Sequence record: ON113172.1
Length of the DNA: 57,457 nt
Strand: one strand, 5' to 3'
DNA from: Enterococcus phage vB_OCPT_SDS2
Part shown: positions 1,026 to 37,678 of the stretch, one piece after another
Position numbering within the stretch: the stretch's first letter is position 1
Layout: the number at the start of each line of letters is the position of its first letter
Notes under the pieces: generated by a model
Told to the model about the DNA's origin: nothing
Seen by the model: only the letters and a program-made list of their open reading frames with translations
Database searches by the model: none
Made by a program: the position numbers and the translations under genes

Positions 1026-2561
1026 CTAGTCAGTCTTAGGTTTCTTTTGGATAGCTTTCTCTTGTTCCTTCGCAGCCACTGGGTCAGTAGTTGTGATGGT
1101 AGATGTGTTAGCAGGGTTCTTATCTAACTTGTTAGCAGCTGCCGTTGAGGCTCCTTGTACAGCGCTAGTCTGTTTGAAGTTCTGCAAGGCGATGTCTGCT
1201 CGTTTCTGACGTTGTTCATCCGCTTTCTCTACTTCTAGTCGAGCGTCAGTAATCCATGGGAACTGATTAATGATAGTTTCGTCAGGAAGCATGTCACGAA
1301 GTTTAACGGCCATGTCAGCTAACTCTGCGTAAGATTGTGGTAAGTTACGTACAAAGACAGGTGTTACTTCATTTGGTTTCAAGTCTTTCTCTTTGCTCAT
1401 TAACTCAAGGTAGCTACAGATAAGTTCATAACGCTTAGCTAATACTTTGCGGAACTTAGATTCTTTAACAGCTGATTTATTCTCAAGCGGTTGCGTAGCT
1501 GCTTTCAAAGCTTGTCCTGAAGCTGCGGTAAAGTCTTTAGAAACCAAGTCAGGTGTTTGTGATAGGCTGAAGATGTCTAGCTTAGCACGGTTCTTAATGT
1601 TTTCGATATGCTTGTCGTTAACATCTTTCGTAATGAACTTGACATTACCAGTATCGTCTGTTACAATTACTCTGTCATTCTTCATGTTGCTAATTGAATC
1701 GCTGTCTGCACTAAGGTCAAATCCTTGTAGCCACAAGTAAGCGTCATTCCAATAAGCAATATCATTAACGCTGTCAGAAACAGCTAGGTTGTAAGCGTCG
1801 ATTAAAGATAGTTGAGCTTCAAAGTCACCTAAGCGTTCTTCATTAGCAATGATTTCTAATACAGGGAACTTTTTAAGCAGGTTAGGATGTTCTTCGTAAC
1901 CTTTAATGTCTAACACTTCTGGAATCTCTTTGTAGACGTCTCTCTCGTCGTCGGTAGAGAATTTAAGAATCTTATCCTCAGTGTAAATCTCATAAGTTCT
2001 AATTACGTGTCCTGTAATATCACTGATAACAGTATTGTAGTAGATGGCTGCTAATGGCTCTTCGTCAAGGTCTGCTGAGTAAGCAATTAAACAGTTCATT
2101 GGAGAAACGGCTTTGAAGCGATGCTTGTTGTTACGGTCAATCCAATGGATTTCGAAACAGTGACCGAAGATTCCTGAGAGCTTAATCTCCTCTGAGTTAA
2201 CGTCTGTTACATAGTTCTCTTTCATAACTGGTTGCATGGCTTTGATAGTTTTCTCATCGCCTGATTCCGTAATTGGTTCACCAGCTAAGTAAGCTGTGGA
2301 AGTGTCTACCAATAGTTTAGGGAAGTTATGAACGATTTTAGAGTTTGGTTTGTTAGCGTCGTCGAAAGTACGTGATTGGATAGCAATGTGATTGCCTTTG
2401 TAGTAGTCGTACAATATTCCATAGGCGCTTGAAGAACGAGAGTGCATTTCGGCAAGGGTTACTAATTCTCGAATATCATAGTTGCGTCTAATGAAATGTT
2501 TACGTCGGATGTTAGTAGTGATTATATCACCAGCGTTAATTTGTCCGTTTGGGATTGCCAT
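1026..2561 (-). CDS. portal protein
   Basis: 511 aa, located between terminase and the head morphogenesis gene. SPP1-type portal size and acidic C-terminus. AAGGAGG RBS. Confidence 0.8.
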   Translation of the reverse strand: MAIPNGQINAGDIITTNIRRKHFIRRNYDIRELVTLAEMHSRSSSAYGILYDYYKGNHIAIQSRTFDDANKPNSKIVHNFPKLLVDTSTAYLAGEPITESGDEKTIKAMQPVMKENYVTDVNSEEIKLSGIFGHCFEIHWIDRNNKHRFKAVSPMNCLIAYSADLDEEPLAAIYYNTVISDITGHVIRTYEIYTEDKILKFSTDDERDVYKEIPEVLDIKGYEEHPNLLKKFPVLEIIANEERLGDFEAQLSLIDAYNLAVSDSVNDIAYWNDAYLWLQGFDLSADSDSISNMKNDRVIVTDDTGNVKFITKDVNDKHIENIKNRAKLDIFSLSQTPDLVSKDFTAASGQALKAATQPLENKSAVKESKFRKVLAKRYELICSYLELMSKEKDLKPNEVTPVFVRNLPQSYAELADMAVKLRDMLPDETIINQFPWITDARLEVEKADEQRQKRADIALQNFKQTSAVQGASTAAANKLDKNPANTSTITTTDPVAAKEQEKAIQKKPKTD

Positions 2562-2619
2562 ATAGAATCCTCCTTATATTTTTCGCTGATACTTGTACCC
2601 AAGACAGATACTAGACGTC

Positions 2620-3891
2620 TTATAAGCCTAGTACCGACTTGTTGATGGTTCTTATTCTGTTACGTGGAATGAGGTCGTTGACAGCATATCGTAAGGCATC
2701 CATACAGTGGTCAAAGCCATTTTGCTTAGGCTTGTTCTCGTAGTCGTCAGAGCCTTTAGCAGGTTTCCATTCGTAGTTCTCAAGCTCTTTAATCGTGTGA
2801 ACACAGCGGGGATGAACGTAGATTGTATAGCCTTGTAGATACTGGATTCCATGAAGGACTGTGTTACGGCCTTTCTTAACAGGCTTAATCTTGCGTGCCC
2901 CTAAGCGTTTAATCTGCTCGATGGTTTCAAGGTTAGCAGAGTCAGCATAGATAAGCTGGTTGGTAAGCTTCTTATGCTTAATCACATCGAATATCTCAGG
3001 AGCTATCATACCAGTTTTAACAAACTCGTCGAATATATAAATTACACGGTCTGCTTCAGATACCAGTGTAGAAAGGATTACGGTAGGGTCGTTAGTGAAC
3101 CCGAAGTCAAGTCCGAAGCGAGCTTCGTATCCCATGTCCAATAGCTTCTTAGGGTTAAAGGTGGAGTCTATTCTCCAGTTGGTATAGATACGTTTACCTA
3201 ATGAAGCAAACTTACCAAGAGCGTAGATTTCATAATAGACTGGATTAGTGTTCTTCAAGTCTTGTAAATGGTCTAGGTAAGCTTTAGGAAGGAATCTATT
3301 ATCCTTGTATGTCGTACAGATTACCTTAGAGCCTTTAGGACGCTTAGTGGCAGGGTTGTGGAAGTATTGATATACCCAGTTGTCTTTAGAGGCAGGGTTA
3401 TACATTACAAACACTTGTTGATGTCGTGCTGTAGGATGCCGTAAACGTGTTTGAAGTTGGTCGTAATCCTCTCGAGTAAACTCTGTTGCTTCCTCCATAA
3501 TGATGTCTGTAAGACCTTGGATAGACTTGATTCGCTCAGGGTCTTCTAAACCTTTGAAGATGTATTCAGTTTTGTTAGGCAGCTTGATTGTCATGTATGA
3601 AGCTTTTACCTCGCAGAAGTCTAGCAGATTCCATTCCTCTAAGCAGACTAGAAACTCTTGGAAGATGGAGTCACGAATAGTGTTGTCAACCTTCCGAAGA
3701 ACAAGGAACTTACGTCTTTCTGATAGGCCTTTTAGAATAGCGTTTTGTACAACAAACTTAGACTTACCTGACCCAGCTCCTCCGTAAAATACCATTGTTC
3801 TATGTTGTCCTTCAGGCTGGTTGTACATGTATGGTAAATAGGCTTCGTTAAATGTTCTTTTGGTTATGGTTAATTTTATTGGTTCAGCCAT
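2620..3891 (-). CDS. terL: terminase large subunit
   Basis: 423 aa. N-terminal Walker A GGAGSGKS. C-terminal RNaseH-like nuclease with D..D motifs. GGAGG RBS. Confidence 0.85.
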   Translation of the reverse strand: MAEPIKLTITKRTFNEAYLPYMYNQPEGQHRTMVFYGGAGSGKSKFVVQNAILKGLSERRKFLVLRKVDNTIRDSIFQEFLVCLEEWNLLDFCEVKASYMTIKLPNKTEYIFKGLEDPERIKSIQGLTDIIMEEATEFTREDYDQLQTRLRHPTARHQQVFVMYNPASKDNWVYQYFHNPATKRPKGSKVICTTYKDNRFLPKAYLDHLQDLKNTNPVYYEIYALGKFASLGKRIYTNWRIDSTFNPKKLLDMGYEARFGLDFGFTNDPTVILSTLVSEADRVIYIFDEFVKTGMIAPEIFDVIKHKKLTNQLIYADSANLETIEQIKRLGARKIKPVKKGRNTVLHGIQYLQGYTIYVHPRCVHTIKELENYEWKPAKGSDDYENKPKQNGFDHCMDALRYAVNDLIPRNRIRTINKSVLGL

Positions 3892-8268: not shown

Positions 8269-8301
8269 ATGCTTATAGAAGAGGACTTAGGAGGGTTTTT
8301 A

Positions 8302-9027
8302 GTGAAGCTTATAAAAGAGGTTAAATCAGTAGACGTTGAGACAGGTTTAGAAACAGTTTACAGAAGCGCCTATGCTGCTTCTAAGGATTTAGGAAAGGAT
8401 TCAACAAGCGTTCGCAACGCCTGTGCTAAAAATAAGGTGTATGCAGGGCATGTGTGGAGTTATACTGGAAGAGAGTTTAAGAAGCATACTTCAATGCAAA
8501 GTAAAAAGCCTATCCAAAAGTATCTGGAAGGGGATTGGAAGCCTATTGAGGGATTTCCTAACTACTCAGTAAGCCGAAAAGGGGAAGTAGTAAATAACCG
8601 TACTGGAAGGATGCTGAAAGCTAGAATAAGCCACAATGGTTACAAGTCACTTTCACTAGGAGCTGGAAACAGTTTCAGAGTCCATCGACTAGTCCTGTCA
8701 ACATTCAGTCCAATAGACGGATGGGAAGAGCTTACAGTAAACCATATTGACGGAGATAAGCTAAACAACTGCTTAGATAACTTGGAGTGGCTCACTTTAG
8801 AGGATAATAAGAAGCACTACTACGACAACAATAAGCGTATATTAGTCTTTGACGATGCTACTGGAGAGGTTTTAGAAGAGGTTACACGAATGGAGAAAGC
8901 TTCCACTAAGTATGGGGTACCTAAAGGGGTTATCCAAGAGCTTTGTGACCTCTATCATGAGGGCATTTACGCTCATGAGAACGGTTATGGATTCTGCCGT
9001 ATGGAAGATTTTGGATTAGATGGTTAA
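8302..9027 (+). CDS. HNH homing endonuclease with NUMOD-type DNA-binding repeats (GTG start after GGAGGG RBS)
   Basis: NUMOD4-like WKPIEGFPNYSVSRKGEV. HNH core HRLV...NHIDGDKLNN. AGG(Y/H)xW(K/S)Y repeats at both ends. Confidence 0.7.
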   Translation: MKLIKEVKSVDVETGLETVYRSAYAASKDLGKDSTSVRNACAKNKVYAGHVWSYTGREFKKHTSMQSKKPIQKYLEGDWKPIEGFPNYSVSRKGEVVNNRTGRMLKARISHNGYKSLSLGAGNSFRVHRLVLSTFSPIDGWEELTVNHIDGDKLNNCLDNLEWLTLEDNKKHYYDNNKRILVFDDATGEVLEEVTRMEKASTKYGVPKGVIQELCDLYHEGIYAHENGYGFCRMEDFGLDG

Positions 9028-21777: not shown

Positions 21778-22533
21778 TTATTTAAACCAATCTTTTCTAG
21801 CAGTCATTTTACCCCAGTTTTTACCAATCTCAATATCGGTCTTACTAGGAACTACTAGTTTCACAGTGTTAATCATAACGTCTTCGATAGCGTCTACTTC
21901 AGCTTCTGTTACGTCTTCTGGAACCTTAAATAAGATTTCATCATGTACTTGGGCAAGGAATCCAAATGAGTTAGGTTCTCCACGAGCCTCCGACAACTCT
22001 TTCAAACGGATTCTAGCAGCATTCATTACAAGCTTAGTCTGAGAGGCCGCTCCTCCTTGAATTAAAGCGTTAGTAGCTTGTCGCAAGGCTCTTGCTGCTG
22101 CTGAGCGGAGCTTCTTATCGTTTTCATCTAAGGAGTTCCAATTCTTTTTAAGGATGTCAAAGTTTTCATGCTTGAATCTACGACGCATTCCGAACAGCGT
22201 TTCAACATAGCGTTGCTTAATAACTGTCTTCTTATTGCCTTCAATCCAAGTTTCCACTTCTGGGTATACTATGAAGAAGTCGTCAATCATTTTCTGAGCT
22301 TCCTGAGCGTCGATACGAAGGATGTCGGCAAGGCTGTAAGCGCCCATTCCATACATGATAGCAAGGACAATCATCTTGGTGTTCTTACGGTAAATGGAGC
22401 CGTCCAAACACTCTTCGATAGGCTTATTAAAGATTGCTGAAGCCATTTCAGAATACAAGTCACGGCCTTCATTATAGATGTTAATAAGTTCTTGACATCC
22501 ACTTGAATGTGCAAGTAGCCTAGGTTCTTGTTG
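21778..22533 (-). CDS. polA: DNA polymerase I family (family A), exon 2: motif A tail, motif B and motif C
   Basis: In-frame upstream extension reads QQEPRLLAHSSGCQELINIYNEGRDLYSEMASAIF, which matches QIELRILAHLSGDENLIEAF. Motif B is RKNTKMIVLAIMYGMG. Motif C is QVHDEIL. Confidence 0.7.
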   Translation of the reverse strand, partial: QQEPRLLAHSSGCQELINIYNEGRDLYSEMASAIFNKPIEECLDGSIYRKNTKMIVLAIMYGMGAYSLADILRIDAQEAQKMIDDFFIVYPEVETWIEGNKKTVIKQRYVETLFGMRRRFKHENFDILKKNWNSLDENDKKLRSAAARALRQATNALIQGGAASQTKLVMNAARIRLKELSEARGEPNSFGFLAQVHDEILFKVPEDVTEAEVDAIEDVMINTVKLVVPSKTDIEIGKNWGKMTARKDWFK

Positions 22534-23281
22534 CGTTAATTTGAGGGGCGTTACTCCCTTTCCACAATTTCTTGTGTAATTGGACTATATCATATAGCTT
22601 TAAAATAAGCTATCCCACCGCTTCGACTTCACTTGAAGCCTACTCTACTAAGTTCTTGGAGAAGCAGTTAAGCCTCTCCAAGCTTTTCGATAGTCTCTGA
22701 ACTTGCGTACTTCCAGAAGAATCCTCCTGCATGTTTTCGTAAACCTCTACCAACTTTACTAATATTTTGGCGAGCTACACCAGTTTCTTTTTCAGCGTCA
22801 ATAGGACTATCAAAGCGCTTAATGAAGTTACCTTCTAAGTCATATTGGAACACTTCTTTAGCCTTACTACCTCTATTAGTTAAATACATATGTCGGTTAT
22901 TTTCAGAAACGGTTGCCCACTCTAAATTAGATTTACGATTATCATTTCTTACTCCATTTAAATGATTCACTACAGGCTTATCTTCAGGGTTAGGGATGAA
23001 GTTCTCTGCAACTAACCGATGGACTCTGTACATTTTCTTTCTAGGCAGACCTCTTTGAAGAGGTACTCTAGCGTATCCATCATGCGTTAAATGTTGCTTC
23101 ATTTCTAATCCTTCTGAGTTAAATATTCTTCCTTCTTCTGTTACAGAGTAATACTTATTTTCAATACCTTCTATAAGCATTCTGATTCCTTCCTGTAACT
23201 GTACGATTAGCTGCTGATTGGCATAGGATTTCTCCCTTAGCTTTCCAGCAATTCAATGGGTTTTACTTCAGCCAACAGTTA
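22534..23281 (-). ncRNA. group I self-splicing intron interrupting the polymerase gene, with an HNH homing-endonuclease ORF in a loop
   Basis: - The 5' exon ends with U (..GACUUCAGU).
- The intron begins UAA (in-frame stop) followed by CUGUUGGCUGAAG.
- IGS GCUGAAG pairs with exon CUUCAGU and has a terminal U.G, forming P1.
- CUGUUG pairs with the 3' exon CAACAag, forming P10.
- The intron ends in G before CAACAAGAA. Confidence 0.7.
22668..23180 (-). CDS. intron-encoded HNH homing endonuclease
   Basis: HRLV..NHLNGVRNDNRKSNLEW HNH core. C-terminal NUMOD-like ISKVGRGLRKHAGGFFWKY. Confidence 0.7.
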   Translation of the reverse strand: MLIEGIENKYYSVTEEGRIFNSEGLEMKQHLTHDGYARVPLQRGLPRKKMYRVHRLVAENFIPNPEDKPVVNHLNGVRNDNRKSNLEWATVSENNRHMYLTNRGSKAKEVFQYDLEGNFIKRFDSPIDAEKETGVARQNISKVGRGLRKHAGGFFWKYASSETIEKLGEA

Positions 23282-24877
23282 ACTGAAGTCTGCTCCAAGG
23301 ATTAATGAGCCTTCTGGAGCCTCAAACATCTTACGAGCTTTCTTGGGCTGCTGTTGTAAATTAGGGTTAGAAGCACTGAAACGACCTGTAACAGTACCAA
23401 ATTGGTTAAACTGTCCGTGGAGCTTTCCGTCAGGCGCAATGAAGGTGTCAATCTTGTTTACGAAAGCTGTCAAATGCTTTGTCAAGTCTTTATAATCAAG
23501 GATGTCCTGAACCTCGTCAACGGCCTTGGCAATCTTTTTCATAGCCTTAGCATTGGCTTGTAACTTGTTTCGGTCGTTTTTAGGAACAACCTTTCCTTCA
23601 GCGTTTACAATAGGGTCTAGGATAACACTTCCATTAGGCATTAATGCAAACAGTTTGTTATTGCTTATTCCATGCTCGTCATAACCTACGTGGCCTCTTA
23701 GAATGGATTTGTGGTCAGCTGTAACATACTTACTCCAATCATTGTCTACGTAAAGCAGTTTTAACAGCTGTGATGGAGAGCTGAAGTTAATGTCGCCAAA
23801 GCGTGCTTGAAGGCGTGCAGAAATCTCTTCTAACTCTGCCTCGCTTTCCTTACGCTGTACCTCAACCTCTTCCATGTTAATGTGGAAGCCTTCTGATTCC
23901 ATTTCAAAAGTGGCCATAATACAAGGTCGCTCAATCCGTTCATAAACCTTTTTAATCTTAGCGAATGAAGGCTTATTAAGGATGTTCAACTGCCATTCAA
24001 ACAGGAGGAATCCAACATAAGTATCCTTTCCCGCGTACCATCGAGCAATCTCAACAGCAATGTCAGCAAACTTAGCATTCTTTCCAAACATTTCCTCAAA
24101 AGTATCTGATGGAATATTCAAGAAGCGTGTTGCTAAAACTTTCAACTGGTAGCTTGGTAGGTCTTCATCTAATAAGTGCATTAAGATTAAGGTATCGTGG
24201 ACAGGCGTTCTAGGAGCGATTCCTAAAGAAGCTTTAGCAAGCCCCATATCGAAGGTTGCATTATGCCATACAGTTGCCTTATCTGACTCAAAGACTCTCT
24301 TAATTCCTTCCTCAGCCCACTTAACATTAGCAATATTTAAATGGCTTGGAGAACCATCTTCTTCACGGTGTCGCATAGGCACGTAACCATTGATGATATC
24401 ACCTTTATAACGGTATGTTAAAGAGAATCCTGAAATCTCTTCACGATACATGTCTGTTCCACCATTGTCACCGACCGTTTCAAAGTCCATCGCCAAGTAT
24501 TCATTATCACATTCAAGAGCGTTGTCAATCCAACTAGCAAGCTCTACAATATTGTTTATGATAGGGAATTTCTTCCACTCTTTCTTACGGATTTCGTCAA
24601 ACTTAGCTTCTCGTTCCATTTCTTGAACCTTTTGGTAAATACGTAGAGCCTCAGCCTTTGAGAAGTTCTTGTTTAACTTGTCTTCCTCACGGCTTACCTT
24701 ACCTTCTTCAAGGTATTCCTTAACTAATTTAAGGCGCTCCTTATCCTTAGCAGAGTTCTTCATTGAGAAGATTTTTGCCCAAGCTTCTTCCATTGTTAAT
24801 AAAGGCTTCTTGCCCTTAACTTTTTTAATTGCTTCCTTAGCTTTTTTATCATCAGGCAAGTTAACTGAAATCTTCAT
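23282..24877 (-). CDS. polA: DNA polymerase I family, exon 1 (3'-5' exo-like and N-terminal polymerase region). Start taken at MKISVNLP with AAGGAGG RBS. Ends LILGADFS at the splice site.
   Basis: Motif A (L)ILGADFS is truncated by the stop codon at the intron start. 3'-5' exo-like DFETVG. Confidence 0.7.
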
Positions 24878-24908
24878 ACAAACTTCCTCCTTGTTTATTC
24901 GATACCTT

Positions 24909-24937
24909 ATGATAACATAAAAAGAGACCTTTGTCAA
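24909..24937 (-). promoter_or_regulatory. minus-strand promoter TTGACA-N17-TATCAT
   Basis: The reverse complement reads cTTGACAaaggtctctttttatgtTATCAT. The -35 lies in a hairpin (GAGACC/GGCCTC) that is followed by a T-run. Confidence 0.5.
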
Positions 24938-24955
24938 GGCCTCTCATACAACTTT

Positions 24956-29513: not shown

Positions 29514-30541
29514 TACTTAACATCTCCTCTAATCTTCTTGATTTCTTCCAATGCCTTCTGGTCAAACTTGCTAACAGCTTTCTTCTCAAGCTCCTCTAAC
29601 TCCTTAAATGTAAGGCTGTGAGCTAAGGCGCATTTATAATCACTGAATGTGAATCCGCTTAGGTCAAGTGGTGGAAGTGTTCCTGCATGAGCGTGTTCAA
29701 TAGCTGTGAAGAAACGATTACGAACGTCCTTCTTATCTTGCTCGGAAATGTTTACTCCGAACACTTGTAAGTCAGGGTTCTTAGTATAGTCTTCCTCAGT
29801 CATTTCCCAAGACTTATGAGCGCAGTTTACATAGACAATTAAATACATGTCTAAGTCTTTTAACATGGCGTAGTTCTTAACTTGCCAAACGTGTTTTGAG
29901 TTCGGTTGTCGCATAGAGAATGCACTAGTAGCTGCTGGAGTAGTCTGTTTAGACTTAACCTCAAGGCCTACTCGAAACTCTTCCCCAGTGGCTGGGTCAG
30001 TCCAAATCATAATGCCATCCATAGAGCCTCCTGTAATGAACTCCATACGGCCTGACTTATACTTCTTGAAGGTTGTAGAGAACTCCTCGAAGTGTGGGAA
30101 GCCTTCTTCAGTACGTTCAAAACGGAAGTGGCACTCCTCTCCAGTAAAGCGTCGGTAGTTCTTCTCCATCATCAAGACTTGCTCCTGAATCATGTCACCA
30201 ACCTTTGTGCCAATCTGTACCCAACGGCTTTGGTGAGCCTGCATTTTAGGAGGGTCTTTTCTATCGCTTCCCTCAATCTTATCAATAGCGAATAGAGTCT
30301 GCTCTCTTAAACATTTACCAGTTCCACTTGAACGGAATACTGGAACGTTTTCTGGAAAGTCCTCGAAAGGATTTCGGTCAACTATTTTAAGATAGTCTCT
30401 CATAAGCTGGTGGTGTACGTCGCTATCGTATGTATAGCCTGTTTCTCCCCACTTATTTAATTGTCGTTTAAAGTCCTCTGCGATAGTATCTACCAGAGTC
30501 TTTCCTGCTGCTTTATTAATTGCTGTTAGCCCTTTAGCCAT
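29513..30541 (-). CDS. putative PD-(D/E)XK family nuclease (recombination exonuclease)
   Basis: DGIMI...GLEVKSK matches a D-(x)n-ExK arrangement. The gene sits in the replication/recombination block next to RuvC. Confidence 0.4.
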   Translation of the reverse strand: MAKGLTAINKAAGKTLVDTIAEDFKRQLNKWGETGYTYDSDVHHQLMRDYLKIVDRNPFEDFPENVPVFRSSGTGKCLREQTLFAIDKIEGSDRKDPPKMQAHQSRWVQIGTKVGDMIQEQVLMMEKNYRRFTGEECHFRFERTEEGFPHFEEFSTTFKKYKSGRMEFITGGSMDGIMIWTDPATGEEFRVGLEVKSKQTTPAATSAFSMRQPNSKHVWQVKNYAMLKDLDMYLIVYVNCAHKSWEMTEEDYTKNPDLQVFGVNISEQDKKDVRNRFFTAIEHAHAGTLPPLDLSGFTFSDYKCALAHSLTFKELEELEKKAVSKFDQKALEEIKKIRGDVK

Positions 30542-30978
30542 TCTACATATTCCTCCATGAAATTATATTTTGCTTCAGGTGATGGAATTAGTTTTTCCAG
30601 AAGCATGTCCATTTTCTCTATCATTGAGAGGTGTTTAGATTCCTCTTCACGCAACTTTATTGAGTGGATAACATTGTCTCTTTGGGTAATCCATTCAAGA
30701 TTAGATGCTCGATTATCCTTCTTATTGCCGTTGATATGGTTGACCACATTACAGCCAGCAGGCCTTTCACAAAAGGTTTCTGCTACAATTCGATGGATTC
30801 TTGCATTATAATATTTGCCTTCAAGAGGGATTCTAACATGTAAGTAGCCAGAGTCTTGGGGCTTTAATAACCTATCAGTCAACTTGTTTTTTACTAAACC
30901 TTCAGAACTAACCTCGTAAATATCTGAGTGGATTCCCTTAAACACTAAAGGCTTCCAAAGTTCCTTAGTTGCTGTCAT
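30526..30978 (-). CDS. free-standing HNH homing endonuclease
   Basis: NUMOD4-like WKPLVFKGIHSDIYEVSSEGLV. HNH core HRIV..NHINGNKKDNRASNLEW. Confidence 0.7.
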   Translation of the reverse strand: MTATKELWKPLVFKGIHSDIYEVSSEGLVKNKLTDRLLKPQDSGYLHVRIPLEGKYYNARIHRIVAETFCERPAGCNVVNHINGNKKDNRASNLEWITQRDNVIHSIKLREEESKHLSMIEKMDMLLEKLIPSPEAKYNFMEEYVEWLKG

Positions 30979-32672: not shown

Positions 32673-33206
32673 TTACATACTAATTTCTACTTTGTACTTG
32701 TGGTTCTCTTTAATACCTTTGTATTTAAACACGTTTCTAAAGTAATTACTACTTTGTCCTTCGGCTAGTGAAGCTTCTGTCATTCCATTATAATAATTAA
32801 CTTCACCAGTGCTTTTACGAGTTACTTTAATATTATGTCCATTCGATTCAGCTATCCGTTTATTCCTAGTTCCATGATTGCAGTTTGATTTGAAATCTAC
32901 CCACTCAAGATTGTCAACCGCATTGTTAGTTGTATCCTCGTCTATATGATTTACAACTGGCAGGTTTTTAGGGTTTTCAATAAATGCTTTAGCTACTAAC
33001 CTATGAGCAGCTTTTCGGGATGTTTTTCCAAACATACTTAAATCATACGCTATATATCCCTTCCTGTCAAGCTTTTTTAGAACTCTTCCATTAATAGTCC
33101 TAGTTCCATTTACATTTTTTACTTTTCTAGTTACTGACCTGACGTTTCCTAGATTACTAACCTCATAGAACCTTTCGTATCCAACTACTGGTTTCCATAG
33201 TTCCAT
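32673..33206 (-). CDS. free-standing HNH homing endonuclease inserted between the helicase and loader genes
   Basis: NUMOD4-like WKPVVGYERFYEVSNLGNV. HNH core HRLV..NHIDEDTTNN..NLEW. Confidence 0.7.
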   Translation of the reverse strand: MELWKPVVGYERFYEVSNLGNVRSVTRKVKNVNGTRTINGRVLKKLDRKGYIAYDLSMFGKTSRKAAHRLVAKAFIENPKNLPVVNHIDEDTTNNAVDNLEWVDFKSNCNHGTRNKRIAESNGHNIKVTRKSTGEVNYYNGMTEASLAEGQSSNYFRNVFKYKGIKENHKYKVEISM

Positions 33207-37340: not shown

Positions 37341-37369
37341 TCCACAAACCTCCATAAGACTTATTTGAA

Positions 37370-37440
37370 CACGCTGTGAAGGAGTCGAACCCTCTCTAAT
37401 GGTTTTGGAGACCATTGTGCAGCCGTTACACTTACAACGC
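37370..37440 (-). tRNA. trnW: tRNA-Trp (anticodon CCA), 71 nt, CCA not encoded
   Basis: Hand-folded:
- 7-bp acceptor stem (GCGUUGU/ACAGCGU, 2 G.U).
- D-stem GUGU/GCAC with GG in the loop.
- Anticodon stem AUGGU/ACCAU, loop CU-CCA-AA.
- T-stem GAGGG/CCUUC with loop TTCGACT.
- Discriminator G. Confidence 0.65.
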
Positions 37441-37678
37441 ATGAACGAGGCAGTCGTCACCGCCTCTGCTACGCCCTCTCCTGCCCTCAAGGGTGGGTAC
37501 TCCTGCTATTGTTTTTACTGCCTATTACAGCAGCCCACAGGCGGGAGCAATCTGTAGCCCTAGACCGCTATAGCCGAGAAGCATCTCGAACTATGTTACG
37601 ACAAACCGTAGTAATGCCGCCTTACATATAATACTATAGCATATTTTAAAGCCTTTGTCAAGCGTTTTTGAACACTTT

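What the first reader, a model, noticed from the sequence alone, without database searches (positions are those of the whole stretch)
21778..24937. DNA polymerase gene split by a group I intron carrying an HNH endonuclease
- Exon 1 ends ..LILGADFS in the middle of Pol I motif A, directly at a TAA.
- 748 nt later the same strand resumes in frame with QQEPRLLAHSSG..., the QIELRILAHLSG equivalent.
- The intervening sequence shows canonical group I features. The exon ends in U. The intron starts UAACUGUUGGCUGAAG, where GCUGAAG is the IGS pairing with exon CUUCAGU (terminal U.G), giving P1. CUGUUG pairs with the 3' exon CAACAag, giving P10. The intron ends in G.
- An HNH ORF (22668..23180) sits inside the intron.
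- This resembles the intron-interrupted DNA polymerase genes of SPO1-like Bacillus phages, as I recall them, but in a much smaller siphovirus-like genome.
Basis: partly seen in the sequence, partly recalled or inferred. Interest (0 to 1): 0.6.

Follow-up and report, generated by a model that had tools for sequence, protein, structure and literature searches.

The report
Self-splicing intron in phage DNA polymerase
The DNA polymerase gene of this Enterococcus phage is interrupted, in the middle of its catalytic motif A, by a 748-base self-splicing group I intron that carries its own homing-endonuclease gene; this is a well-known kind of selfish element in phage polymerase genes, here at an insertion site the literature I could search does not describe.

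Summary
The window is an Enterococcus faecalis siphophage of genus Saphexavirus. Its family A DNA polymerase gene lies on the minus strand. Exon 1 is 24877..23282, a 748-nt insert is 23281..22534, and exon 2 is 22533..21778. Removing the insert gives a 783-aa protein. It is colinear, without gaps, with the uninterrupted polymerase of sister phage HEf13 (98.5% identity).

The insert has a complete group I core of the IA2 type:
- P1 with a U·G pair at the splice site, P10, P3-P9, P7.1/P7.2 and a terminal G.
- The helices keep pairing in a divergent Listeria-phage intron at the same site.
- Rfam scores it below threshold only because the ORF splits the core.

The 170-aa ORF sits in the P6a loop and is a full-length homologue of I-HmuI, the nicking HNH endonuclease of the SPO1 polymerase intron.

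The insertion site (ADFS|QQE, after E. coli Pol I S707) differs from the SPO1 site. Sister phages carry a second intron exactly at the SPO1 site, 81 nt upstream. Others carry the same ribozyme with a different HNH gene.

GenBank records already label the pieces "DNA polymerase I / HNH homing endonuclease". Verdict: real and correctly interpreted, a new member of a known kind, of modest interest.

The parts
24909..24937 (-). Promoter-like site (TTGACA-17-TATCAT with TG) upstream of the polymerase gene. It contains the TTG that the mechanical ORF call used as a start codon.
   Evidence: 11 of 12 consensus matches. Consensus match only; function is inferred.
23282..24877 (-). DNA polymerase exon 1: 532 codons, from ATG 24877 to AGT 23284..23282. 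It encodes an N-terminal region, the 3'-5' exonuclease domain and the first part of the polymerase domain, up to the motif A aspartate (..LILGADFS).
   Evidence: Pfam DNA_pol_A_exo1 9.2e-11. Colinear with HEf13 Pol I.
22534..23281 (-). Group I intron of IA2 type, 748 nt. It begins with UAA (an in-frame stop) and ends with G at 22534.
   Evidence: It is absent, at exactly these boundaries, from HEf13, Ef7.1, SP-QS1 and PMBT56.
23266..23288 (-). P1 and the internal guide sequence. Exon CUUCAGU (23288..23282) pairs with GCUGAAG (23272..23266). The loop holds UGUUG (23277..23273), which pairs with the first five bases of exon 2 (22533..22529) as P10.
   Evidence: 7/7 and 5/5 pairs. In Listeria phage LP-114, P10 is kept through a U-A to U-G change.
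23201..23260 (-). 5' half of the core. P3 5' strand 23260..23254; P4 23250..23245 with 23217..23212; P5 23241..23235 with 23227..23221; P6 5' strand 23211..23210; P6a 5' strand 23205..23201. It includes the classic P element (AAUUGCUGGAAAGC) and Q element (AAUCAGCAGC).
   Evidence: RF00028 positions 60-145, 21.9 bits. (P4 has four pairs changed on both sides in LP-114)..
22668..23180 (-). Intron ORF, 170 aa: I-HmuI-like HNH homing endonuclease (NUMOD4 / HNH_3 / NUMOD1). It sits in the P6a loop behind a GGAAGGA ribosome-binding site. Its last ~14 codons run through P6a', P6', J6/7 and P7 into P7.1, and its stop codon (22670..22668) lies in the P7.1 loop.
   Evidence: HNH_3 2.2e-10, NUMOD1 2e-06. 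(PDB 1U3E I-HmuI, E = 2.2e-13, residues 4-159 against 7-171).
22534..22710 (-). 3' half of the core. P6a' 22710..22706; P6' 22702..22701; P7 5' strand 22695..22690 (R element GUUCAGAGACUAUC); P7.1 22682..22672 with 22665..22655; P7.2 22640..22635 with 22630..22625; P3' 22620..22614; P8 22613..22607 with 22600..22594; P7 3' strand 22588..22583 (S element AUGAUAUAGUCC); P9 22576..22572 with 22567..22563; P9.1 22559..22556 with 22547..22544; terminal G 22534.
   Evidence: RF00028, 24.5 bits.. Compensatory changes in P7.2 and one-sided pair-preserving changes in P7.1 and P7 between window and EF_RCK. All helices are replaced but still paired in LP-114.
21778..22533 (-). DNA polymerase exon 2: 251 codons plus stop. 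It starts QQEPRLLAHSSG (the second half of motif A, with the glutamate equivalent to E. coli E710) and holds motifs B and C.
   Evidence: No ATG, GTG or TTG lies in frame between the last intron stop and 22458.

Best explanation
The phage's family A DNA polymerase gene is transcribed as one pre-mRNA that contains a 748-nt group I intron of IA2 type.

Splicing. The intron folds into the P1-P10 core. An exogenous guanosine attacks after the U of ..GAC UUC AGU, which is held in P1 by the guide GCUGAAG. P10 (UGUUG with CAACA) then aligns exon 2. The exons are ligated after the terminal G. This restores motif A (GADFS-QQEPR) and gives a 783-aa polymerase.

Before splicing. The UAA that opens the intron stops any ribosome on unspliced RNA, so only a polymerase-dead exonuclease fragment would be made.

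The endonuclease. The intron's P6a loop encodes an I-HmuI-type HNH endonuclease with its own ribosome-binding site. By analogy with I-HmuI, I-HmuII and I-BasI, it nicks the polymerase gene of co-infecting intron-less relatives near the insertion site. Repair then copies the intron and the adjacent exon bases into that genome (homing with co-conversion).

What is shown and what is inferred. Shown here: exact boundaries, the restored reading frame, the conserved and covarying RNA core, the homology of the ORF, and the patchy distribution among sister phages with linked flanking-exon variants. Inferred: self-splicing in vivo or in vitro, nicking activity and its site, and mobility.
For: 1. In-silico splicing gives 2352 nt (783 codons plus stop) with no stop before the terminal one. 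The product has 98.5% amino-acid identity, without gaps, to the uninterrupted Pol I of Enterococcus phage HEf13, whose sequence reads ..LILGADFSQQEPRLLAHSSG... Uninterrupted alleles also occur in Ef7.1, SP-QS1 and PMBT56.

2. The spliced protein matches Pfam DNA_pol_A at 1e-80. It aligns across the junction to Taq Pol I: LILGADFSQQEPRLLAHSSG with LLVALDYSQIELRVLAHLSG, and motifs B and C follow.

3. RF00028 gives two ordered partial hits inside the insert, E = 0.0025 and 0.015. The canonical P, Q, R and S elements can be read directly in the sequence.

4. All 13 helices pair in six introns at this site. The LP-114 and L009 introns have different sequences in P3, P4, P6a, P7.1, P7.2, P8 and P9 that still pair.

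5. Unconstrained folding of the ORF-deleted core recovers P1, P3, P4, P5, P6a, P7.1, P7.2, P8 and P9. z = -5.55, and 0 of 200 shuffles fold as well.

6. A related ORF-less intron in a Felixounavirus polymerase gene passes the Rfam threshold (61.3 bits). So does the second Saphexavirus intron in TV16 (51.2 bits).

7. The ORF is a full-length homologue of I-HmuI (PDB 1U3E, E = 2.2e-13) with HNH_3 and NUMOD domains.

8. There is no in-frame start codon for exon 2.

9. Signs of mobility. The intron is 99.3% identical to that of EFap05-1, while the exons are 94.5-95.5% identical. All intron-plus alleles carry Ser AGT and CAACAAGAA at the junction. Intron-less alleles carry TCG or TCC and CAACAGGAG.

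10. The same architecture (no P2, P7.1/P7.2, ORF from P6a into P7.x, intron starting UAA) was shown experimentally to self-splice in cyanophage Pf-WMP3 (PMC3428280).
Against: There is no RNA evidence for this phage or any Saphexavirus.

Both Rfam hits in the window are below the gathering score (24.5 and 21.9 bits against 50).

The comparative support rests on few independent lineages: essentially one Saphexavirus ribozyme with minor variants, plus one Listeria-phage lineage. The helices were assigned by hand.

The endonuclease's activity, strand preference and target are inferred only from 30-40% identical relatives.

The higher conservation of the intron relative to the exons could partly reflect structural constraint rather than recent transfer.

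Ribosomes finishing the ORF would unfold P6a', P7 and P7.1. How translation and folding are reconciled is unknown.
Confidence: 0.93

Rival explanations
1. The gene is truly split. A free-standing HNH homing-endonuclease cassette separates two polymerase cistrons, which are translated separately and assemble into an active enzyme. Gene 43 or nrdA behaves this way in some T4-like phages. No RNA splicing occurs.
For: GenBank records of relatives annotate two or more separate 'DNA polymerase' CDSs around an HNH gene. The phage also carries three free-standing HNH genes elsewhere. Exon 1 ends at a stop codon.
Against: No ATG, GTG or TTG lies in frame between the last intron stop and codon 26 of exon 2. 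A separate C-terminal fragment would therefore lack QQEPRLLAH, including the glutamate equivalent to E. coli E710. The break falls between the two catalytic carboxylates of motif A. The flanks of the HNH gene form a complete, covarying group I core, with P1 and P10 complementary to both exon edges. A simple cassette insertion does not explain that.
Confidence: 0.03
2. A decayed intron. The ribozyme no longer splices efficiently on its own, so the polymerase gene is a pseudogene or depends on a host or phage factor.
For: The Rfam score is below threshold. The ORF overlaps core helices. One metagenomic relative (L009) appears to end in A instead of G.
Against: At least 14 independently isolated, plaque-forming phages carry this intron with the same ORF, at 93-99% identity, in what is the only polymerase gene detected in this window. 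Every core helix and the terminal G are intact. Differences between variants preserve pairing, which indicates ongoing selection on the RNA structure.
Confidence: 0.04
3. Another kind of intervening element: an intein, a group II intron, or translational bypass.
For: None beyond the presence of an insert in a conserved motif.
Against: The insert opens with an in-frame stop and has many stops in the polymerase frame, so it is not an intein. There is no reverse transcriptase and no group II match in Rfam. A 748-nt gap is far beyond known translational bypassing. Group I elements are present.
Confidence: 0

Closest known systems
Group I intron with I-HmuI in the DNA polymerase gene (gene 31) of Bacillus phage SPO1; likewise SP82 with I-HmuII and Bastille with I-BasI
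   Same: A family A polymerase gene in a phage of Gram-positive bacteria. The intron is of IA2 type. The endonuclease is a full-length homologue of I-HmuI (PDB 1U3E).
   Different: The insertion site differs. SPO1, SP82 and Bastille sit at E. coli Pol I position 674 (DP|NLQ; PMC3428280). This intron lies 27 codons downstream, after S707 in motif A. The host phage is a 57-kb siphovirus, not a 130-160-kb myovirus. A different Saphexavirus intron (TV16, Pumpjack, PEF7b, fHoEfa06) does occupy the SPO1 site.
[quoted passage not shown]
   Same: The RNA architecture is the same as the paper describes: no P2, P7.1/P7.2 joined by GUA, an ORF that starts in P6a and runs through P6, P7 and P7.1, a short P10, and UAA as the first three intron bases. 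Its self-splicing was shown experimentally.
   Different: The site is 674, not 707. The endonuclease has a C-terminal HNH motif and nicks the coding strand. The host is a T7-like podovirus.
Intron in the Pol I gene of Listeria phage LP-114 (Homburgvirus; GenBank KJ094021, CDS annotated as a join)
   Same: The insertion point is identical (..LILSADFS|QQEPRLLAH). The helix plan is the same, with the ORF in the P6a loop. The HNH is 39% identical.
   Different: The ribozyme sequence has diverged in nearly every helix, which is what provides the covariation. The phage genus and host differ.
Same ribozyme with a different endonuclease gene in Enterococcus phages IME-EF1, EFC1, PG11 and Toszka
   Same: Same site. 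The 3' 170 nt of the intron match at 162-170 of 170 positions, and the 5' part up to P6 is identical.
   Different: The P6a helix and the whole ORF are replaced. The HNH is 156 aa, only 40% identical, and ends before P6a'.

Membership tests
Group I intron (Rfam RF00028) | Score at or above the curated gathering threshold of the covariance model | tested here: not met
   24.5 and 21.9 bits against 50. The model is split in two by the 490-nt ORF loop in P6a. Related introns with an undivided core pass: 61.3 bits in L015 and 51.2 bits in TV16. The tool cannot score an ORF-deleted construct.
Group I intron | P1 formed by the 5' exon end and an internal guide sequence, with a U·G pair at the splice site; P10 with the 3' exon; terminal G | tested here: met
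   CUUCAGU/GCUGAAG 7/7 with U·G. UGUUG/CAACA 5/5. G at 22534.
Group I intron | Conserved core helices P3-P9 in canonical order, including the P3/P7 pseudoknot and the P, Q, R, S elements, supported by covariation | tested here: met
   All helices pair in six introns at this site. In LP-114, P3, P4, P6a, P7.1, P7.2, P8 and P9 have different sequences that still pair. The MFE fold recovers the nested helices, z = -5.55. Few independent lineages are available.
Group I intron | Guanosine-dependent self-splicing | not testable with these tools
   This needs in-vitro transcription with GTP and Mg2+, or RT-PCR.
Subgroup IA2 | Extra hairpins P7.1 and P7.2 between P7 and P3', joined by G-U-A | tested here: met
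   P7.1 has 11 bp and P7.2 has 6 bp with an AAGU loop. GUA lies directly before P7.2. P7.2 shows a U-A to C-G change in EF_RCK and is fully replaced in LP-114, which keeps the same AAGU loop. The criterion is taken from PMC3428280.
I-HmuI-like HNH homing endonucleases | HNH (His-Me finger) catalytic motif with NUMOD-type DNA-binding modules; sequence homology to I-HmuI | tested here: met
   HNH_3 2.2e-10 and NUMOD1 2e-06, both above the Pfam cut-off. NUMOD4 and I-HmuI_NUMOD-like are below the cut-off. 1U3E E = 2.2e-13 over residues 4-159, with the catalytic His-Asn positions of the aligned motif (VVNH..NLEW) conserved.
I-HmuI-like HNH homing endonucleases | Site-specific nicking of the polymerase gene near the intron insertion site | not testable with these tools
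   Indirect only: intron presence is strictly linked to flanking-exon variants.
Family A (Pol I-type) DNA polymerase | 3'-5' exonuclease and polymerase domains, with motifs A, B and C intact after splicing | tested here: met
   DNA_pol_A 1e-80 and DNA_pol_A_exo1 9.2e-11. Alignment to Taq and Klenow is contiguous through DYSQIELR, RRxxKxxNFGxxYG and QVHDE.

The most novel reading that the evidence does not exclude
The Saphexavirus polymerase gene may be an arena where mobile elements compete. The evidence here:
- Two unrelated intron/endonuclease pairs sit 81 nt apart, at site 707 and at the SPO1 site 674.
- They are never found together in the 23 intron-bearing records surveyed.
- The site-707 ribozyme exists with two different HNH cassettes that are 40% identical.
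- This window carries the site-674 intron's cognate exon flank (AACCCT|AATTTA) without that intron.

The reading is that the endonucleases exclude each other's flanking markers in mixed infections, as I-HmuI and I-HmuII do. If so, they would shape which therapeutic Enterococcus phages win co-infections. The system would also have caught endonuclease-gene replacement inside a fixed ribozyme in the act.
Probability: 0.3. Interest if true: 0.5.

Novelty: new member of a known kind. Interest (0 to 1): 0.27.

Why it matters
In practical terms, it corrects the annotation. Dozens of deposited Saphexavirus genomes, many from phage-therapy candidates, list two to four "DNA polymerase" fragments plus an HNH gene where there is one spliced 783-aa polymerase.

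Biologically, it adds an insertion site inside motif A (after E. coli S707) to the sites listed for phage Pol A genes in the 2012 paper I read (674, 676 and 881). It extends I-HmuI-type polymerase introns to small siphoviruses of enterococci.

It also offers a compact natural series for studying homing, co-conversion and endonuclease-gene turnover: no intron, intron A with either of two endonucleases, or intron B.

None of this changes how such elements are understood.

Tried and rejected
- Rfam on the window at E-value threshold gave only sub-threshold split hits. I could not submit an ORF-deleted construct to Rfam, so I relied on hand-assigned helices checked by script, an unconstrained fold and related introns that pass the threshold.
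- A MAFFT alignment of ORF-deleted cores (A1) misaligned P6a, P7.1, P7.2 and P9 between the Saphexavirus and Listeria introns. I therefore did not use the count of structure pairs or RNAalifold on it.
- A pattern scan of IMG/VR for the 5' splice site plus guide sequence found only two contigs, IME-EF1 itself and an LP-114-like phage. That collection added almost no diversity.
- Literature searches for a description of this intron in Enterococcus phages or Saphexavirus found only annotation-level mentions such as "HNH homing endonuclease/phage intron". A search for the Listeria P70-like phages found nothing. A 2025 compilation lists the Saphexavirus phage EFC1 as intron-bearing but names the gene as a ribonucleotide reductase operon. 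The cited paper is not held.
- I considered and rejected a split gene with separate translation, an intein, a group II intron and translational bypass (see the rival explanations).
- I checked whether the Felixounavirus polymerase intron, which has a similar ribozyme, shares the insertion site. It does not: its P1 pairs with ..UAUGCGU in another part of the gene.
Full report
**What the window is.** The 3.2-kb region is 92-95% identical to the polymerase region of many Enterococcus faecalis siphophages of genus Saphexavirus, such as EFap05-1, vB_EfKS5, EF653P1 and the EF_TR1 group. The records annotate it as "DNA polymerase I (x2) | HNH homing endonuclease". The window length (57,457 bases) is about that of a whole Saphexavirus genome.

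**Check of the observation.** Everything lies on the minus strand.
- The polymerase ORF ends ..GSLILGADFS, with AGT at 23284..23282, and runs straight into TAA (23281..23279).
- The frame resumes at 22533 with CAA CAA GAA CCT AGG = QQEPR.. The distance is exactly 748 nt (23281..22534).
- The mechanical ORF start at TTG 24937 is not the start codon. It is the -35 hexamer of a promoter-like site, TTGACA-17-TATCAT.
- The start is ATG 24877, behind AAGGAGG. This matches the 1599-nt first CDS annotated in relatives.

**In-silico splicing.** Joining 24877..23282 to 22533..21778 gives 2352 nt, 783 codons plus a stop, with no internal stop.
- The product has 98.5% amino-acid identity, position for position and without gaps, to the uninterrupted Pol I of phage vB_EfaS_HEf13, which reads ..LILGADFSQQEPRLLAHSSG...
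- Three more sister phages (Ef7.1, SP-QS1, PMBT56) also have the uninterrupted gene.
- The spliced protein matches Pfam DNA_pol_A (1e-80) and the 3'-5' exonuclease domain.
- It aligns to Taq Pol I straight across the junction: LILGADFSQQEPRLLAHSSG against LLVALDYSQIELRVLAHLSG. Motifs B (RKNTKMIVLAIMYGMG) and C (QVHDEI) follow.
- The insert therefore lies between the residues equivalent to E. coli Pol I S707 and Q708. It separates the two motif A carboxylates, D705 and E710. This numbering comes from established knowledge of Klenow fragment.
- The intron lies between codons (phase 0).

**The RNA.** Rfam RF00028 gives two ordered partial matches inside the insert. One is 23250..23170 (model positions 60-145, P4-P6; 21.9 bits). 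The other is 22887..22561 (24.5 bits). Both are below the gathering score of 50. A 2025 survey of phage introns describes this behaviour for introns whose core is split by an endonuclease loop (PMC11878797).

Reading the sequence directly gives the classic elements:
- P: AAUUGCUGGAAAGC
- Q: AAUCAGCAGC
- R: GUUCAGAGACUAUC
- S: AUGAUAUAGUCC

I assigned the helices P1, P10, P3, P4, P5, P6, P6a, P7, P7.1, P7.2, P8, P9 and P9.1 by hand and checked them by script in six introns that occupy this same site. All pair, in canonical order.
- Within Saphexavirus, EF_RCK differs from the window by a U-A to C-G exchange in P7.2. It also has three pair-preserving single changes in P7.1 and one in P7.
- The intron at the identical site in Listeria phage LP-114 (..LILSADFS|QQEPR) has different sequences in P3, P4, P6a, P7.1, P7.2, P8 and P9. 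All of them still pair, and the AAGU loop of P7.2 and the GAAA loop of P9 are retained.
- An unconstrained fold of the core with the ORF loop replaced by GAAA recovers P1, P3, P4, P5, P6a, P7.1, P7.2, P8 and P9 (-85.7 kcal/mol, z = -5.55, 0 of 200 shuffles as good). P7 cannot appear in that fold because it forms a pseudoknot with P3.
- P7.1 and P7.2 between P7 and P3', preceded by GUA, together with the absence of P2, are the features used to assign phage polymerase introns to subgroup IA2 (PMC3428280).
- The ribozyme resembles introns in many other phages. One of them, an ORF-less intron in a Felixounavirus polymerase gene, passes the Rfam threshold at 61.3 bits and shares the R-to-P7.2 stretch almost verbatim. 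It sits at a different site.

**The ORF.** 23180..22668 encodes 170 aa with HNH_3 (2.2e-10) and NUMOD1 (2e-06), plus weaker NUMOD4 and I-HmuI_NUMOD-like matches.
- It aligns over nearly its full length to I-HmuI, the nicking endonuclease of the SPO1 polymerase intron (PDB 1U3E, E = 2.2e-13).
- It lies in the P6a loop behind GGAAGGA.
- Homology to I-HmuI ends at ..FFWKYA. The last ~11 codons simply read on through P6', J6/7 and P7 into P7.1, and the stop codon falls in the P7.1 loop.
- No promoter-like site precedes it inside the intron.

**Against separate translation of exon 2.** No ATG, GTG or TTG lies in frame between the last stop inside the intron and TTG 22458, which is 25 codons into exon 2. 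An independent C-terminal fragment would lack the motif A glutamate.

**Mechanism.** The best-supported account has four steps.
1. The gene is transcribed as one pre-mRNA.
2. Guanosine-initiated self-splicing restores the polymerase mRNA.
3. The opening UAA terminates translation on unspliced RNA.
4. The HNH protein nicks intron-less polymerase alleles of co-infecting relatives, and repair copies in the intron with adjacent exon bases.

Only the anatomy is shown here. Catalysis and mobility are inferred. Three population patterns fit mobility.
- Of about 68 Saphexavirus records with this gene, 19 carry this intron, 4 carry another, and the rest carry neither.
- The intron is 99.3% identical between the window and EFap05-1, while the exons are 94.5% and 95.5% identical.
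- Every intron-plus allele examined has GAC TTC AGT|CAA CAA GAA. Intron-less alleles have TTT TCG or TTC TCC, followed by CAA CAG GAG. P1 needs ..CAGU, so the AGT serine codon must travel with the intron.

**Comparison with what is known.** Group I introns with HNH nicking endonucleases in phage Pol A genes have been known since SPO1.
- The 2012 Pf-WMP3 paper lists insertion sites 674 (SPO1, SP82, Bastille, Pf-WMP3), 676 (phiL7) and 881 (PhiI, W31) in E. coli numbering.
- It describes for Pf-WMP3 the same architecture found here: no P2, P7.1/P7.2, an ORF from P6a into P7.x, and an intron starting with UAA.
- The present site, 707|708, is not in that list. However, the LP-114 GenBank record already annotates a joined CDS at exactly this site, and the Saphexavirus records name the pieces.
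- I found no paper in the searchable library that describes the Saphexavirus intron as such.
- I therefore class it as a new member of a known kind.

**Extras found on the way.**
- TV16, Pumpjack, PEF7b and fHoEfa06 lack this intron. They carry a 795-nt intron 81 nt (27 codons) upstream, at SNP|NLQ. This is the SPO1 site. Its own P1 is AACCCU/GGGGUU and its P10 is AAUUUAC/GUAAAUU. Its HNH ORF lies between the R and S elements, and it scores 51.2 bits in Rfam.
- No record has both introns.
- The window, which lacks that intron, nevertheless has its cognate exon flank AACCCT|AATTTA at 23363|23362. Other phages have AATCCA|AACTTA there.
- IME-EF1, EFC1, PG11 and Toszka have the same site-707 ribozyme (3' 170 nt matching at 162-168 of 170) but a different P6a helix and an HNH only 40% identical. 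PG11's exon 2 is 99.6% identical to the window's. This looks like replacement of the endonuclease cassette inside a fixed ribozyme.

**Verdict.** It is an ordinary, textbook-type element in a lineage and at a site the literature I could search does not describe. Interest is modest.

Noticed in passing
L004 (Enterococcus phage TV16) 1338-2132, minus strand; also Pumpjack L013, PEF7b and fHoEfa06: Some sister phages lack the window's intron. They carry a different 795-nt group I intron with its own HNH gene, 81 nt (27 codons) upstream, at SNP|NLQ. This is the same polymerase position as the SPO1, SP82, Bastille and Pf-WMP3 introns. It passes the Rfam threshold (51.2 bits). Its 5' part is 88% identical to a stretch in Bacillus phage Smudge. 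No record in the phage collection carries both introns.
   Followed up: partly
window 23355-23371 (minus strand), junction 23363|23362: The window has no intron at the SPO1-type site. It does carry the exon sequence AACCCT|AATTTA, which matches the P1 and P10 guides of the TV16-type intron. Other Saphexaviruses have AATCCA|AACTTA there. This may be a footprint of precise intron loss or of co-conversion, or it may be the native homing site.
   Followed up: partly
L003 (IME-EF1) 1255-2008, L014 (PG11), L006 (Toszka): These phages have the same ribozyme at the same site (3' 170 nt matching at 162-168 of 170). The P6a helix and the whole endonuclease gene are replaced by a 156-aa HNH that is only 40% identical. 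PG11's exon 2 is 99.6% identical to the window's. This looks like endonuclease-cassette replacement inside a fixed intron.
   Followed up: partly
window 8269-9027 (+), 30526-30978 (-), 32673-33206 (-): Three further HNH endonuclease paralogues, 37-47% identical to the intron ORF over the HNH region. They sit between complete genes, one of them between helicase-like and replication-protein-like ORFs, with no group I signal nearby. They are probably free-standing homing endonucleases.
   Followed up: partly
window 24909-24945 (minus strand): A terminator-like hairpin (24945..24922) overlaps a near-consensus promoter (TTGACA-17-TATCAT) directly upstream of the polymerase start. The TTG that a mechanical ORF call takes as the start codon is the -35 box.
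   Followed up: no
window 37369-37441 (minus strand): A single tRNA-Trp (CCA) gene, as reported for related Saphexaviruses.
   Followed up: no
L009 (IMG/VR UViG 2595698754, LP-114-like), 3' end of the intron: With the reading frame and P10 fixing the 3' junction at |CAACAAGAG, this metagenomic relative's intron would end in A (..GGAACUA) rather than the universal G. This may be a sequencing error, a decayed copy or a shifted splice site.
   Followed up: no
L015 (Escherichia phage tootiki, Felixounavirus) 2435-2718: An ORF-less group I intron (Rfam 61.3 bits) splits the polymerase gene at another site (exon ..UAUGCGU|). The record annotates it as two separate polymerase CDSs. Its R-P7.1-P7.2 stretch is nearly the same as in the Enterococcus intron.
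   Followed up: partly
L003 (IME-EF1) 2008-3605 and L005 (EF_RCK) 1799-3397: Exon 1 of the polymerase is annotated as two or three overlapping CDSs in these records, and the IME-EF1 exon is 1 nt short. These look like frameshifts, probably from sequencing errors, on top of the intron split.
   Followed up: no
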